From the IMG/VR virus record IMGVR_UViG_2617270939_000005: 11,968 bases of DNA; one strand, 5' to 3'. The stretch's first letter is position 1, and every line of letters starts with the position of its first letter. The position numbers were made by a program, and so were the translations under genes. Under the pieces are notes generated by a model. The model was not told where the DNA came from. It was given only the letters and a program-made list of their open reading frames with translations, and made no database searches. Source of the DNA: a virus (lineage: Duplodnaviria; Heunggongvirae; Uroviricota; Caudoviricetes). This document shows positions 6,280-11,125 of the stretch, one piece after another.

Positions 6280-7806
6280 TTAACGGCCAGCGCGTTTGCC
6301 AGCGGAGCGCTGCGCAACCAGAGCGCGGTATTGATCGTCGTACTGGCGATGGCCGGGGCCATACCCTGATTGCTGCGCCCACTGCGAAAGCTGATCATAC
6401 GCTGCAATAAACTCAGCATGAGACATACCAACAGGTTGCGAGGCAGGCTGGCCGTATGGGTTCCCCTGTGATGGGACATAACCAGTCGCAGTGCCTGCGA
6501 CCATACGCTCTTGCAGATAATGAACCGCCCGCTGCATCTGCGCAGGGTCGCCAGACATAACCATCCGTTCAAGGGTTGATTGCGTCCCGGCGTCGAGCGT
6601 GCCAGCGTACTGCAACATCGCGTCAACTGTCCCCTGCCCTAGCTGGCTTTCGACAGACTGGTGAAACTGCCCCATCAGCCCATGAAGTTCAGGAGTCAAC
6701 TCAACAGTAGTGCCATCCTGTAATTGCAGCGTGTCGCCCACTTGCGCAGCAACATCAATCTGCTGGTCTTGCTGGTTGGCAAAGTTACTTTCGTTCCAGC
6801 TTTGATTAATGTTCGCTGGCTGCGTTTTCAGGAAATCAGCATCAGGTGTTGTCTGGTCGAATCTGCTAGCGCCGTTGTCAGCGCCTACAGGTGCGGCCAT
6901 GTACGGCGATTGCTGCGGCGCAGTATCAGCGCCCGAAAGGTACGGATTAACATTCTGGTCAGCCAGCACATCACTACCACGGGAGAAGATCGCATCAGCA
7001 ACAGACAACTGCCCCGGCCTCCACTCCAGCCCATCGGGTGGCAACAGGCTAACGCGTGCGTTTCGGTCACAGCGAACCAGCGGGCGAAACTCATAAGAGG
7101 CTGTATTCAGTGACGGCACAGACGGCGACACTGCCAAGCCGTTTGGGTCACAATGATGATTTGTACTGTTAAATTTATCCTCGGTAGGTTTCGACTCTCC
7201 ACACCACAATTGACGAAACTCCGCTGAGTCCCCGTAGCGTTTGAAATCTGAATTGCGCATCGCTTCCAGTTTATTCATGCCCCTGTTGATGCGGTGTATA
7301 GTCTTCTCATCACAAATCAGGAACTCGCGGCAGGCTTTGAGAAAAGCATTCTGCCCGGTTGTCGATGCCGAAACGGCGTGCTCGCGCGGTTTCAATGCGG
7401 CATCATCTACGCGAACACCGGGAAAATCAGGCGGCAGCGGGTCAGCATACCGAGCAGGCTTCTTGTTGAGCCACATTTCTATCTCAGCGCGTCGGCAATG
7501 AATTGCGTCACCGGGCTGGATGACTTGCCGCAACCCCGTGTCAGAGCGCTGTTTTTGCTTCTTCGGTTGAACACCATGCAGCGCTCGCCATTCCCGCAGG
7601 GTCATAGCGGAGCCATCAGCATTGTAATAAAACTCTTCGGTCTTCGTGTTGTATGCCGCCTTAACGGGTTTATGCTTTATCGGGCATATCTTGGAACGCC
7701 GAATAACAATCCCGTCAGCGACCATTTGCTGTACATCTGCGTTTGCGGTATTGAGCGGGTCAGCGTCGGCAGCCTGCGCAAGCAAACGGCGTAGGTTCGT
7801 TGGCAT
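6280..7806 (-). CDS. Hypothetical protein, 508 aa: N-terminal region with HTH-like segments, C-terminal half Gln/Gly/Ala-rich low complexity
   Basis: ATG at 7804-7806 with GGAG 8 nt upstream; first gene of the minus-strand operon. Segments AMTLREWRALHGV and QVIQPGDAIHCRRAEIEMWL look like DNA-binding (AlpA/HTH-like) motifs. The C-terminal ~200 residues are Q/G/A/P-rich. No Walker A or protease motif seen. Confidence 0.7.
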   Translation of the reverse strand: MPTNLRRLLAQAADADPLNTANADVQQMVADGIVIRRSKICPIKHKPVKAAYNTKTEEFYYNADGSAMTLREWRALHGVQPKKQKQRSDTGLRQVIQPGDAIHCRRAEIEMWLNKKPARYADPLPPDFPGVRVDDAALKPREHAVSASTTGQNAFLKACREFLICDEKTIHRINRGMNKLEAMRNSDFKRYGDSAEFRQLWCGESKPTEDKFNSTNHHCDPNGLAVSPSVPSLNTASYEFRPLVRCDRNARVSLLPPDGLEWRPGQLSVADAIFSRGSDVLADQNVNPYLSGADTAPQQSPYMAAPVGADNGASRFDQTTPDADFLKTQPANINQSWNESNFANQQDQQIDVAAQVGDTLQLQDGTTVELTPELHGLMGQFHQSVESQLGQGTVDAMLQYAGTLDAGTQSTLERMVMSGDPAQMQRAVHYLQERMVAGTATGYVPSQGNPYGQPASQPVGMSHAEFIAAYDQLSQWAQQSGYGPGHRQYDDQYRALVAQRSAGKRAGR

Positions 7807-7947: not shown

Positions 7948-8210
7948 GTATGCACAAGCGAGTGGTGTTCGTTTTGCCACAGTAGAAACTCTAATTTGAT
8001 TATTTTTTAATCAACACCTTTGTAAGCCTTGCCCTGTCTGACTTGATGAATGATTTGCTGATAACTTTCAGTAGGTTTGTTGGGATGCTGGGATGTAAGG
8101 GGTTATAAGCGGCATTGTGAGTACCATATCCCAATATAGTACCGTACCACTACTCTATCCCCGCCGCGTTGACTGCCTGGCAAGCACGGTTGCGTGGAGG
8201 GCCGAGCATC

Positions 8211-8260
8211 ACAGCGGGCGAAGGCCGGGAATGAGCCAAAGGCGATGGAGCGGGCTGGAG
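8211..8260. repeat. Degenerate copies of the tRNA-Gly 3' end (relic att-type direct repeats)
   Basis: AGCGGGCGAAGG at 8213-8224 is identical to 888-899 of the tRNA fragment, and TGGAGCGGGC at 8246-8255 is identical to 885-894; both are in the same orientation as the 885-912 repeat. The surrounding 8200-8300 is purine-rich with recurring GAGC...AGCG units. Confidence 0.45.
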
Positions 8261-8629
8261 CATAGCGAGAAGCGCAGCCAGTGTAGAGCGAAAAGCGATA
8301 ACACTGATTAGGAGAAGGGATGAAAGGGAAGAACCCTTTTCTGTACATGTATTTTAAATGCAACTTTAAAGGTAAAACGAAGGTGTTGCCCTGCTTCAAA
8401 TCTAGCTGAGTGATTGGACAACACAGCCTTTGATCCCTTCCCCTGCCCCATCCCTCGAATTGTTCAGTGATAAATCACATTCACAATCTGATCTTGATAC
8501 TCATCGTCTGGCACGGCTAAAGCCCCGCCATCTCTTCATATCAAGAGCCGCAAGTAATACGGAAATACATTATAAATCATACCATTACGAGATTAGGCAT
8601 AACATAAATATCTGATATCAATACAAAAG

Positions 8630-8700
8630 CTGTAGGCCATCCATCACCCACAGCCCAGTAACGGCCAGTGCTGGCATCTCATCAGACTGTAGGTCATCAC
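8630..8700. repeat. Imperfect direct repeat CTGTAGG(C/T)CATC...CAC at the 3' end of the recombinase gene
   Basis: CTGTAGGCCATCCATCAC at 8630-8647 and CTGTAGGTCATCAC at 8687-8700; the second copy overlaps the recombinase stop codon at 8697-8699. Significance uncertain. Confidence 0.35.
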
Positions 8701-9329
8701 TCTGTAACGCTGGCGGACAGCTCACGTTTGATACGGTAGAACGTTGCCCGGCTTATCCCGGCAGCTTTCATGATGTGCTCTGGTTTATTCCCAACGGTAA
8801 GCATAGCGCGGACAGTTTCACGGGCGCTCTCATCCTTAGACTTCCCGTTATATTTCCCCTCGGCTTTGGCACGCTTGATGCCCTGCGCTTGGCGTGCTCT
8901 GCGTGTCTCGTAGTCCACTCGTGCCATCGTAGCGAGGATATCAATCAGCATTGCGTTAACAGCTCTCAGGATGCCCTCTGTAAGCTCTGACGCCGTATCG
9001 TTCAGTAGTTGCCATGAGGTTGGCAGGTCAACGGCAACGATCACCAGTCCCTTATCCTGAATCCTCTGTTTCAGTGTCGCCCATTCCTTTTGCGTAAGGC
9101 GGCTTAGCCTGTCGATGCTCTCGACAAGCAAGACCTCTCCGGCCTGCGCATCATCCAGCAAGCGCATTAGTTCAGGACGCGCCAGCCTCGCACCGCTGGC
9201 GTTCTCGATGTACTCCGCCCGTACAGGCCAGCCCCGATCACTGGCGAACTCTCGCAGCAAGCCCAGCGCCCGGTCTGCGTGTTGCTCTGATGTACTGGCG
9301 CGGCAATAGATAAGCGCATTGTGTGCCAT
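8697..9329 (-). CDS. Small serine recombinase (resolvase/invertase family), 210 aa
   Basis: N-terminal catalytic motif YCRASTSEQ (the Y-x-R-x-S-T-x-x-Q serine recombinase signature), the VESIDRLSR motif and a C-terminal HTH (AAGISRATFYRIKRE). ATG at 9327-9329 with GGGGGA upstream. Confidence 0.85.
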   Translation of the reverse strand: MAHNALIYCRASTSEQHADRALGLLREFASDRGWPVRAEYIENASGARLARPELMRLLDDAQAGEVLLVESIDRLSRLTQKEWATLKQRIQDKGLVIVAVDLPTSWQLLNDTASELTEGILRAVNAMLIDILATMARVDYETRRARQAQGIKRAKAEGKYNGKSKDESARETVRAMLTVGNKPEHIMKAAGISRATFYRIKRELSASVTE

Positions 9330-10046
9330 GCTTCCCCCTAAGTCTCAATGAAATATCACAGCAAGACCTATAAGAGATCACATCAATAATGTGTAGTCAA
9401 TAGAGTTTTATAGATAGTCAAATGAGACAGTGTGTCTATGTCTTTATCAGGTATACCCGAAAGAGACTGGCACCGCCCCACAGCAGCATTCCCCGGCACA
9501 TCCAGCGAACACAGCGTAGAGCGCACGCAGCAGATCAGCACGGCACCGCCACGATCTCGAAATCACAAAGGCATTGAATCACACATTGGAAGCACAGAAC
9601 GCAGCACAGAGCGATACAGATCGTTTTAGAGGGATGTACAGATACACAGTGAAAGGCAGATGATCGCAGCACTCGTCCCACACGGTTATTCAGCAACAGC
9701 AATCAGCCAGCATCTCGCTCAGTAGCACGCTCCTGTAATGCTTGTCTCGGATGAGCAAAATCTTAGGGTTTCTCAGCGACCCCTGACGCGCGGGCACGCA
9801 CATGCACACGGGGGCGCGGGCGAGCTATAGAGTTGAGGGAGGGGCAACCATAAGCGTGCAATTTTCAAGCTGGGACTTTTAACAGTGGGATTGTGGGGCT
9901 GTTTTGCATTCAGAGAGTGAGGCTGTGGGGGAGCCCTCCTTGAACCAAATAATGCGAAACTGATCATTCTTCCACGTAGCTTAGGCCACTTTGCATGGAT
10001 AATTAGCACCAAACACAGCAGCCAGTTTAAGAGAAATGCGCGACAT

Positions 10047-10265
10047 CTACCGTCTGCGTTTACCCCAGCGCTGCATTATGGCTCTGTGTGCTTCATCCGC
10101 TGACCATTCAATAGGTACAACAACGTGTACAGGCATTTCATCGCCAGAGGGGGCACCACGTAAATGGACTCTATACCCTAGTTTATTAAGTTCTACCTCG
10201 GACATCGGTGATATAACCTCGCCGCTATGGCTGCCGCCAACAAACTCAGCTTTAAAATCCAACAT
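10047..10265 (-). CDS. Hypothetical protein, 72 aa (doubtful)
   Basis: ATG at 10263-10265 lies directly downstream of a G9 run on the minus strand (C9 at 10267-10275 on plus) that could serve as a Shine-Dalgarno-like element. Its composition is more protein-like than the overlapping plus-strand ORF 10036..10359 (Ser/Thr/Pro-rich). No homology recognised. Confidence 0.35.
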   Translation of the reverse strand: MLDFKAEFVGGSHSGEVISPMSEVELNKLGYRVHLRGAPSGDEMPVHVVVPIEWSADEAHRAIMQRWGKRRR

Positions 10266-10266
10266 G

Positions 10267-10275
10267 CCCCCCCCC
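10267..10275. repeat. Homopolymeric C9 tract (G9 on minus strand)
   Basis: Nine consecutive C read directly at 10267-10275, immediately 5' of the 72-aa minus-strand ORF start and inside the alternative plus-strand ORF. Confidence 0.9.
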
Positions 10276-10355
10276 TACACACTAACAAGAATCATTGAAG
10301 GTGTATCACCCAGCAACTACGCTGGGCAGAACATCACCTCGGACTATCAATCAAC

Positions 10356-10814
10356 TTAGTATCGCTTTGTGTCTCGTAGTATTACAGACAGTAACCACCA
10401 CCATTGGCGTTTGATCCAACAAACATCACTGAACATCTTGCCGTCAGATGTTTTGATATAAACCCCGCCACGATGATGCACTTTGTTGTGATGAGCCTTA
10501 TTTATGAATGGCACGTTCAAGACCATTTCGTCTCGTGCTTTCAATCTTTTTGGCAGCATCGGTGTGATCATGTTCTCGTCCGAATATTCGTCGGATAACA
10601 TTCTAAGGCGTCCACTGGCTGTTACCACACCGGCTGCACTCAACGTTACATCGTGTGCGCTTATGTTCGAAACGTATATCCTGTCCTCGTGCTGATCACA
10701 TCCGAGATAAAGCCTTAGCGATGTTCTGGATTTTAGTAATTGAAATACGGACAAAGCAAAACCCGCCCACGCCGCGATCCCTGTCCAGTTATCTGTTTGG
10801 GTGATCCAAGTCAT
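10356..10814 (-). CDS. Hypothetical single-pass membrane protein, ~152 aa
   Basis: The track ORF starts with TTG at 10815-10817; the ATG at 10812-10814 overlaps the upstream gene's TGA (TGATG), indicating coupling. The N-terminal stretch WTGIAAWAGFALSVFQLL is a probable transmembrane helix, followed by a soluble domain with a His/Lys-rich segment (KAHHNKVHHRGG). Confidence 0.6.
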   Translation of the reverse strand: MTWITQTDNWTGIAAWAGFALSVFQLLKSRTSLRLYLGCDQHEDRIYVSNISAHDVTLSAAGVVTASGRLRMLSDEYSDENMITPMLPKRLKARDEMVLNVPFINKAHHNKVHHRGGVYIKTSDGKMFSDVCWIKRQWWWLLSVILRDTKRY

Positions 10815-11041
10815 CAAGGCTGCATCCCCTTCGACATAAGATACTTAACGATCCCTTCTCGTTGCCTATTACTCAGCTGAAAACATTTGTCTAGTTGAGA
10901 TAAAACCTGCTCGACATCATCTGCCAAGATGGCACTAGCTGCACGAGCGGGGAGATCTCCCTGAATTTTGATAGTGAAATACCCTGAAGATATTGATAGC
11001 TTCAAAAAACAACCTGCTGAGAACTCGTAACTCTCGCTCAT
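10814..11041 (-). CDS. Hypothetical protein, 75 aa, first gene of the minus-strand operon
   Basis: ATG at 11039-11041 with AGAGG about 6 nt upstream; stop overlaps the start of the membrane protein gene. No motif recognised. Confidence 0.55.
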   Translation of the reverse strand: MSESYEFSAGCFLKLSISSGYFTIKIQGDLPARAASAILADDVEQVLSQLDKCFQLSNRQREGIVKYLMSKGMQP

Positions 11042-11113: not shown

Positions 11114-11125
11114 AAAAAAAAAAAA
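11114..11125. repeat. Homopolymeric A12 tract in a divergent intergenic region
   Basis: Twelve consecutive A read directly at 11114-11125, between the divergently oriented 75-aa gene (start 11041) and 259-aa gene (start 11189). Confidence 0.9.

What the first reader, a model, noticed from the sequence alone, without database searches (positions are those of the whole stretch)
10267..10275. C9 homopolymer tract at the start of a small ORF: possible slipped-strand phase-variation switch
Nine consecutive C/G lie directly upstream of the ATG of the minus-strand 72-aa ORF, where on the mRNA they would act as a G-rich Shine-Dalgarno-like element, and within the overlapping plus-strand ORF. Tracts of this length are prone to length variation by slipped-strand mispairing, which would alter translation initiation or reading frame.
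Basis: seen in the sequence. Interest (0 to 1): 0.45.

Follow-up and report, generated by a model that had tools for sequence, protein, structure and literature searches.

The report
Length-variable poly-G ribosome-binding site
A run of nine G's forms the ribosome-binding site of a real but uncharacterised 72-residue gene on an E. coli phage-related island, and its length differs (5 to 10) between otherwise near-identical copies, so it is a slippage hot spot that probably tunes rather than switches the gene's translation.

Summary
The C9 run (G9 on the coding, minus strand) is at 10267-10275 as reported and is the only C/G run of 6 or more in the window (about 0.013 expected). It ends 1 nt before the ATG of a 72-aa ORF. 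An in-frame TAG overlaps its first G, so it lies in the 5' UTR and acts as Shine-Dalgarno plus spacer. The ORF is a real gene: it has distant homologs (34-46% identity), conserved motifs and a confident AlphaFold model (pLDDT 90.5), but no known fold or function. In 28 related loci (E. coli, Kosakonia, metagenomes) the tract is G5 to G10. G6, G8 and G9 are each seen in three or more independent assemblies. The surrounding 405 nt has no other indel. Distant homologs use ordinary GGAG-type sites, so the tract is lineage-specific. No tract length fuses reading frames, and the overlapping plus-strand ORF is spurious. Models predict graded and partly opposing effects on translation: better SD spacing, but stronger sequestration by an internal C/U run. 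A TTG 3 nt downstream buffers the effect. Slippage-driven polymorphism is therefore supported. An on/off phase switch is not, and rapid reversible switching was not tested.

The parts
10267..10275 (-). Poly-G tract (G9; C9 on + strand): Shine-Dalgarno plus spacer of the 72-aa gene; length-polymorphic (G5-G10) among relatives
10047..10265 (-). 72-aa gene (ATG 10265-10263; alternative TTG 10262-10260); real small protein of unknown function
10275..10277 (-). In-frame TAG overlapping the first G of the tract; keeps the tract outside any ORF that could fuse to the 72-aa gene
   Evidence: (sequence)
10276..10355 (-). 80-nt conserved leader between the 153-aa gene stop and the tract; no promoter-like or terminator-like site found
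10356..10817 (-). 153-aa upstream gene (RefSeq WP_000219901.1, 10356-10814), under purifying selection; probably co-transcribed with the 72-aa gene
10146..10155 (-). C/U-rich stretch (UGCCCCCUCU, ORF nt +111 to +120) predicted to pair with the G tract and sequester the ribosome-binding site
10036..10359 (+). Plus-strand 107-aa ORF containing the C9: judged spurious (antisense shadow of the 72-aa gene)

Best explanation
The tract is the ribosome-binding site (Shine-Dalgarno plus spacer) of a genuine 72-aa gene. That gene is the last in a small minus-strand operon (75 aa, 153 aa, 72 aa) in the cargo end of a phage-related integrative island. Because it is a 9-nt G:C homopolymer, it gains and loses bases by replication slippage far more often than neighbouring sites, which gives alleles of 5 to 10 G. 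The SD anchor (AGGGGG) sits at the 5' edge of the tract, so each G added or lost changes the SD-to-AUG spacing by one nucleotide. It also changes how strongly the site pairs with an internal C/U-rich stretch. The expected result is a graded change in translation of the 72-aa protein, not an on/off switch or a frameshift. Shown: the position of the tract, the polymorphism, the reality of the gene, and the absence of frame fusion. Inferred: the effect on translation and co-transcription with the upstream genes. Unknown: whether the variation is selected for.
For: The tract sits 1 nt before the ATG and is bounded by an in-frame TAG. Lengths of G5-G10 occur in 28 loci. Loci with identical 405-nt flanks differ (9 vs 8, 8 vs 7, 8 vs 5), and there is no other indel; this needs at least 6-7 length changes against about 30 substitutions across the 405 columns. 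G6, G8 and G9 are each seen in 3 or more independent assemblies, and three datasets carrying the K. arachidis-type locus (L017, L018, L019) all read G6. The gene is real: 8 homolog clusters at 34-46% identity, invariant F8 G11 G30 Y31 E43 P51, and an AF2 model with pLDDT 90.5. Distant homologs have GGAG-type SDs 6-9 nt from the ATG, and G8-G10 bring the spacing here towards that range. The spacing model gives about a 17-fold graded range from G5 to G10. Published precedents for length-variable G tracts in 5' UTRs acting gradually or post-transcriptionally: PMC8295292, PMC11898584.
Against: No expression data exist for this gene. RefSeq does not annotate it. The two models oppose each other: longer tracts improve SD spacing but raise the cost of opening the site from 19.5 to 24.5 kcal/mol, so neither sign nor size of the effect is certain. 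A TTG 3 nt downstream buffers short tracts. G5, G7 and G10 rest on one or two contigs, at least some of them low-coverage. Length is the same across datasets of the same lineage, which suggests lineage-level rather than rapid change.
Confidence: 0.6

Rival explanations
1. It is a true contingency locus: high-frequency, reversible, selected phase variation (on/off, or an adaptive rheostat) of the 72-aa gene within clonal populations.
For: The tract is long enough for slippage and is placed where length matters. Long alleles (G8, G9) persist in several lineages. The gene lies in the island's variable cargo region, next to defence genes in some loci (ThsB_TIR, SduA, type I restriction).
Against: There are no within-sample data. 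Datasets of the same lineage give the same length. Distant homologs lack any tract. Predicted effects are graded and buffered.
Confidence: 0.18
2. It is a functionally neutral polymorphism. The tract is a tolerated slippage hot spot, and length changes have no meaningful effect because the SD can slide along the run, a TTG start compensates, and structure offsets spacing.
For: The model terms oppose each other. An ATG-TTG tandem start is present in all loci, and gene callers choose the TTG in some short-tract loci. The tract is lineage-specific.
Against: SD-start spacings of 1-2 nt (G5, G6) are expected to be strongly suboptimal for the ATG. Long tracts would be expected to decay if unselected, yet G8 and G9 are common.
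Confidence: 0.17
3. The length differences are sequencing or assembly errors at a homopolymer.
For: G/C homopolymers are error-prone. G5, G7 and G10 are singletons or doubletons, and at least some come from contigs of about 2x coverage.
Against: G6, G8 and G9 each recur in three or more independent assemblies from different projects and track the flank haplotypes.
Confidence: 0.05

Closest known systems
Helicobacter pylori tlpB-hp0102 leader G-repeat targeted by the sRNA RepG (PMC8295292)
   Same: It is a homopolymeric G run in an mRNA leader whose length differs between strains and sets expression gradually rather than on/off.
   Different: There the repeat lies upstream of the RBS and acts through a trans-acting C/U-rich sRNA. 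Here the run is itself the SD and spacer, and no sRNA partner is known; only a cis C/U-rich stretch is predicted to pair with it.
Mycobacterium tuberculosis espR 5'UTR homopolymer variant (PMC11898584)
   Same: A single-base indel in a poly-G tract in a 5' UTR changes translation through UTR structure and RBS accessibility without changing mRNA level.
   Different: That tract begins 144 bp upstream of the start codon and its effect is shown experimentally. Here the tract abuts the start codon and the effect is only modelled.
Classical SSR phase variation by frameshift or promoter-spacer change (Neisseria, Haemophilus; e.g. napR poly-G, PMC11798529)
   Same: The mutational mechanism is the same (slipped-strand mispairing at a homopolymer), and so is the inter-strain length polymorphism.
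   Different: The tract is neither inside the coding sequence nor in a recognisable promoter spacer. The host is a mismatch-repair-proficient enterobacterium, a group in which, to my knowledge, such loci are uncommon.

Membership tests
SSR contingency locus (phase variation) | Repeat tract long enough for slippage | tested here: met
   G9 in the window and G5-G10 in relatives. Indel rate depends on homopolymer run length in E. coli (PMC8510543).
SSR contingency locus (phase variation) | Tract length polymorphic among close relatives with conserved flanks | tested here: met
   Six alleles in 28 loci, with differences within identical 405-nt haplotypes.
SSR contingency locus (phase variation) | High-frequency reversible switching within a clonal population | not testable with these tools
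   This needs read-level or fluctuation data. Datasets of the same lineage give identical lengths.
SSR contingency locus (phase variation) | Length change alters expression of the linked gene | tested here: inconclusive
   The spacing model predicts about a 17-fold graded range, and the structure model predicts an opposing trend. No experiment was possible.
Shine-Dalgarno element | Complementary to the 16S 3' end at a workable distance from the start codon | tested here: met
   Duplex energy is -8.7 to -11.4 kcal/mol with aligned spacing of 3-5 nt for G7-G10; spacing is suboptimal for the ATG at G5-G6.
Frameshift or transcriptional-slippage site joining two ORFs | Tract inside a coding sequence, linking two open frames | tested here: not met
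   An in-frame TAG overlaps the first G, and at most 4-9 extra codons are open at any tract length.
RepG-type sRNA-targeted G-repeat | Cognate C/U-rich trans-acting sRNA | not tested
   No Rfam family was found in the window. The rest of the genome was not searched.

The most novel reading that the evidence does not exclude
The poly-G ribosome-binding site is a selected translational rheostat in Enterobacteriaceae. Slippage would stochastically set the dose of a small protein of novel fold, carried in the cargo region of a phage-related island. That protein might act in phage-satellite-host conflict. The unusual silent-site conservation of the gene and of the 107 nt after it would then reflect an overlapping nucleic-acid-level function.
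Probability: 0.15. Interest if true: 0.55.

Novelty: new member of a known kind. Interest (0 to 1): 0.33.

Why it matters
To my knowledge, repeat-driven expression variation is well documented in Neisseria, Haemophilus, Helicobacter and Campylobacter, and recently in Mycobacterium, but is rarely described in E. coli and its relatives. It is also rarely described for a homopolymer that is itself the Shine-Dalgarno sequence. If the tract tunes a mobile-island gene, it would be a simple natural example of heritable, stochastic dose setting at the level of translation. It would also point to an uncharacterised small protein family with a confident but unmatched fold. If the tract has no effect, it is simply a mutational hot spot that annotators and variant callers should treat with care.

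Tried and rejected
Plus-strand 107-aa ORF as a real gene: rejected. It has no family hits, it is antisense to a validated gene, and its tail is not conserved across tract lengths.
Fusion of upstream frames to the 72-aa ORF by a +/-1 change: rejected.
6-codon uORF ending at the TAG: its ATG is lost in L003 and in L011-type loci, so it was discarded.
Structured RNA in 9940-10290: z = -1.1 and 0.0, with no Rfam hit.
Leader hairpin CCCAGC/GCTGGG: it is broken in Kosakonia-type loci without compensating changes, and it has no U tail.
Promoter with the tract as its spacer: no site passed the scan, and manual inspection found poor -10 hexamers.
Function of the 72-aa protein: no hit in Pfam, PHROGs, PADLOC, PDB sequences, or Foldseek against PDB and BFVD. 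AFDB was unavailable.
Pattern scans of the genome, metagenome and viral collections added only 3 loci.
The 72-aa gene is not an obligate partner of the 153-aa gene: it is absent from L036 and replaced in E2348/69.

Full report
**Observation.** The + strand carries nine C at 10267-10275. It is the only C or G run of 6 or more in the window. A first-order Markov model expects about 0.013 C runs of 9 or more. On the minus strand the sequence reads ...GTGTA-G9-C-ATG, and the ATG at 10265-10263 opens a 72-aa ORF (10047-10265).

**Setting.**
- The window matches an E. coli chromosomal island (NZ_LR536431.1) that lies beside tRNA-Gly and actS.
- The island encodes a tyrosine integrase, endonuclease VII, an HNH endonuclease, a major-head-protein homolog, a helicase and a serine recombinase. 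I read it as a phage-related, satellite-like element; that reading is an inference.
- The tract lies in the island's variable end, in a minus-strand gene run of 75 aa, 153 aa and 72 aa.
- One promoter-like site lies upstream of the 75-aa ORF. No promoter-like or terminator-like site separates the 153-aa and 72-aa ORFs, so co-transcription is likely but not shown.

**Is the 72-aa ORF a gene?**
- No library has a family match for it. A word-indexed search found only one tight cluster, in E. coli and Kosakonia.
- An exhaustive phmmer search found 8 further clusters of 71-80 aa at 34-46% identity, with E-values down to 5e-11.
- The alignment shows invariant F8, G11, G30, Y31, E43 and P51, plus the motifs FxGG, LGYR, AVPIEW and EAHRAI.
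- With that alignment AlphaFold gives pLDDT 90.5 and pTM 0.75 for a beta-beta-alpha-beta-beta-alpha domain. Without the alignment pLDDT was 55.
- No PDB or viral structure matches the model.
- I conclude it is a real small protein of unknown function.
- The plus-strand 107-aa ORF has no homologs, and its tail changes frame with tract length. It is spurious.

**Position of the tract relative to the reading frames.** An in-frame TAG (10277-10275) overlaps the first G. At no tract length does a sense frame gain more than a few codons. The tract therefore lies purely in the 5' UTR, and frameshift-type switching is excluded.

**Length variation.**
- I recovered 28 related loci: 27 fetched from E. 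coli, Kosakonia and metagenome assemblies, plus the window itself.
- The tract is G5 in 2 loci, G6 in 10, G7 in 1, G8 in 9, G9 in 5 (including the window) and G10 in 1.
- Over the surrounding 405 columns there is no other indel. Loci with identical flanks differ in tract length: 9 vs 8, 8 vs 7 and 8 vs 5.
- This requires at least 6-7 length changes against about 30 substitutions across the 405 columns. As a locus, the tract changes roughly 100 times more often than an average site.
- G6, G8 and G9 each recur in three or more independent assemblies. Three datasets carrying the K. arachidis-type locus (L017, L018, L019) all read G6. Wholesale artefact is therefore unlikely.
- G5, G7 and G10 rest on one or two contigs, at least some of them low-coverage.
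- Stability within a lineage argues for change on evolutionary timescales. Rapid switching within a population was not tested.

**Origin of the tract.** Five distant homologs have ordinary SDs (GGAG, GGGAG, GGAGGGAG, AGGAG, AAGG) 6-9 nt before the ATG, and none has a homopolymer. The tract is therefore a recent feature of the roughly 95%-identical E. coli/Kosakonia lineage. In a viral contig the 259-aa, 75-aa and 153-aa trio occurs without the 72-aa gene. In E2348/69 the segment carrying the 72-aa gene is replaced by other sequence.

**Mechanism (inferred).**
- AGGGGG at the 5' edge of the tract pairs with the 16S 3' end, so each G changes the SD-to-AUG spacing by one nucleotide.
- My simplified model, written along the lines of the RBS Calculator, gives summed relative initiation of 0.18 (G5), 0.47 (G6), 1.05 (G7), 1.2 (G8), 1.55 (G9) and 3.1 (G10). 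A TTG 3 nt downstream of the ATG partly compensates at short lengths.
- Folding the whole transcript pairs the tract with UGCCCCCUCU at +111 to +120. The cost of opening the ribosome-binding site rises with tract length, from 19.5 to 24.5 kcal/mol between G5 and G10.
- The two effects oppose each other. A graded effect is plausible, but its sign and size are uncertain.

**Comparison with known systems.** The closest known cases are the H. pylori tlpB leader G-repeat, which sets expression gradually through the sRNA RepG (PMC8295292), and the M. tuberculosis espR 5'UTR homopolymer, which acts post-transcriptionally (PMC11898584). This tract differs in being the SD and spacer itself. It meets the structural and polymorphism criteria for an SSR contingency locus. 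The criteria of rapid reversible switching and of an effect on expression remain untested.

**Verdict.** This is a new member of a known kind and of modest interest.

Noticed in passing
window 9940-10265: The 72-aa ORF and the 107 nt after it are far more conserved at silent or non-coding sites than the adjacent 153-aa gene. ORF72 shows 0-3 synonymous changes where 7-12 are expected (P 0.0004-0.006). The 107 nt show 0-1 changes where 16-17 are expected (P 1e-6 to 3e-8). ORF72 dN/dS is about 1 or higher, against 0.11 for ORF153. No RNA-fold signal was found. The cause is unexplained; it could be nucleotide-level constraint or a separate recombination history.
   Followed up: partly
window 9981-10046 (-): A 21-aa mini-ORF (MSRISLKLAAVFGANYPCKVA) starts immediately after the 72-aa ORF stop (TAG|ATG). 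It is retained in all loci, including those where homology ends at 9976.
   Followed up: no
window 9726-9875: A ~150-nt unannotated segment is shared at 90-94% identity with about 100 other E. coli genomes whose islands carry different cargo beyond it. It has no Rfam hit and no folding signal. It is probably the boundary between the island core and its variable cargo.
   Followed up: partly
window 6962-6965 and 8194-8742: The window is not colinear with NZ_LR536431.1. About 2.9 kb of that record is absent, which creates a 508-aa ORF (6280-7806, minus strand) that looks like a fusion of the helicase N-terminus with the next gene. A 549-nt segment is present here, and in E2348/69 and Kosakonia-type loci, but is missing from the record.
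   Followed up: partly
window 11114-11125: An A12 homopolymer, the longest run in the window, lies in the divergent intergenic region between the 75-aa (-) and 259-aa (+) genes, close to the only promoter-like site found. It could itself be length-variable.
   Followed up: no
L008, L011, L022, L017: In other hosts the 153-aa/72-aa block sits beside defence or toxin-antitoxin genes: ThsB_TIR, SduA_C (Shedu), a type I restriction enzyme and a ParE toxin. This is consistent with a location in a defence hot spot.
   Followed up: no
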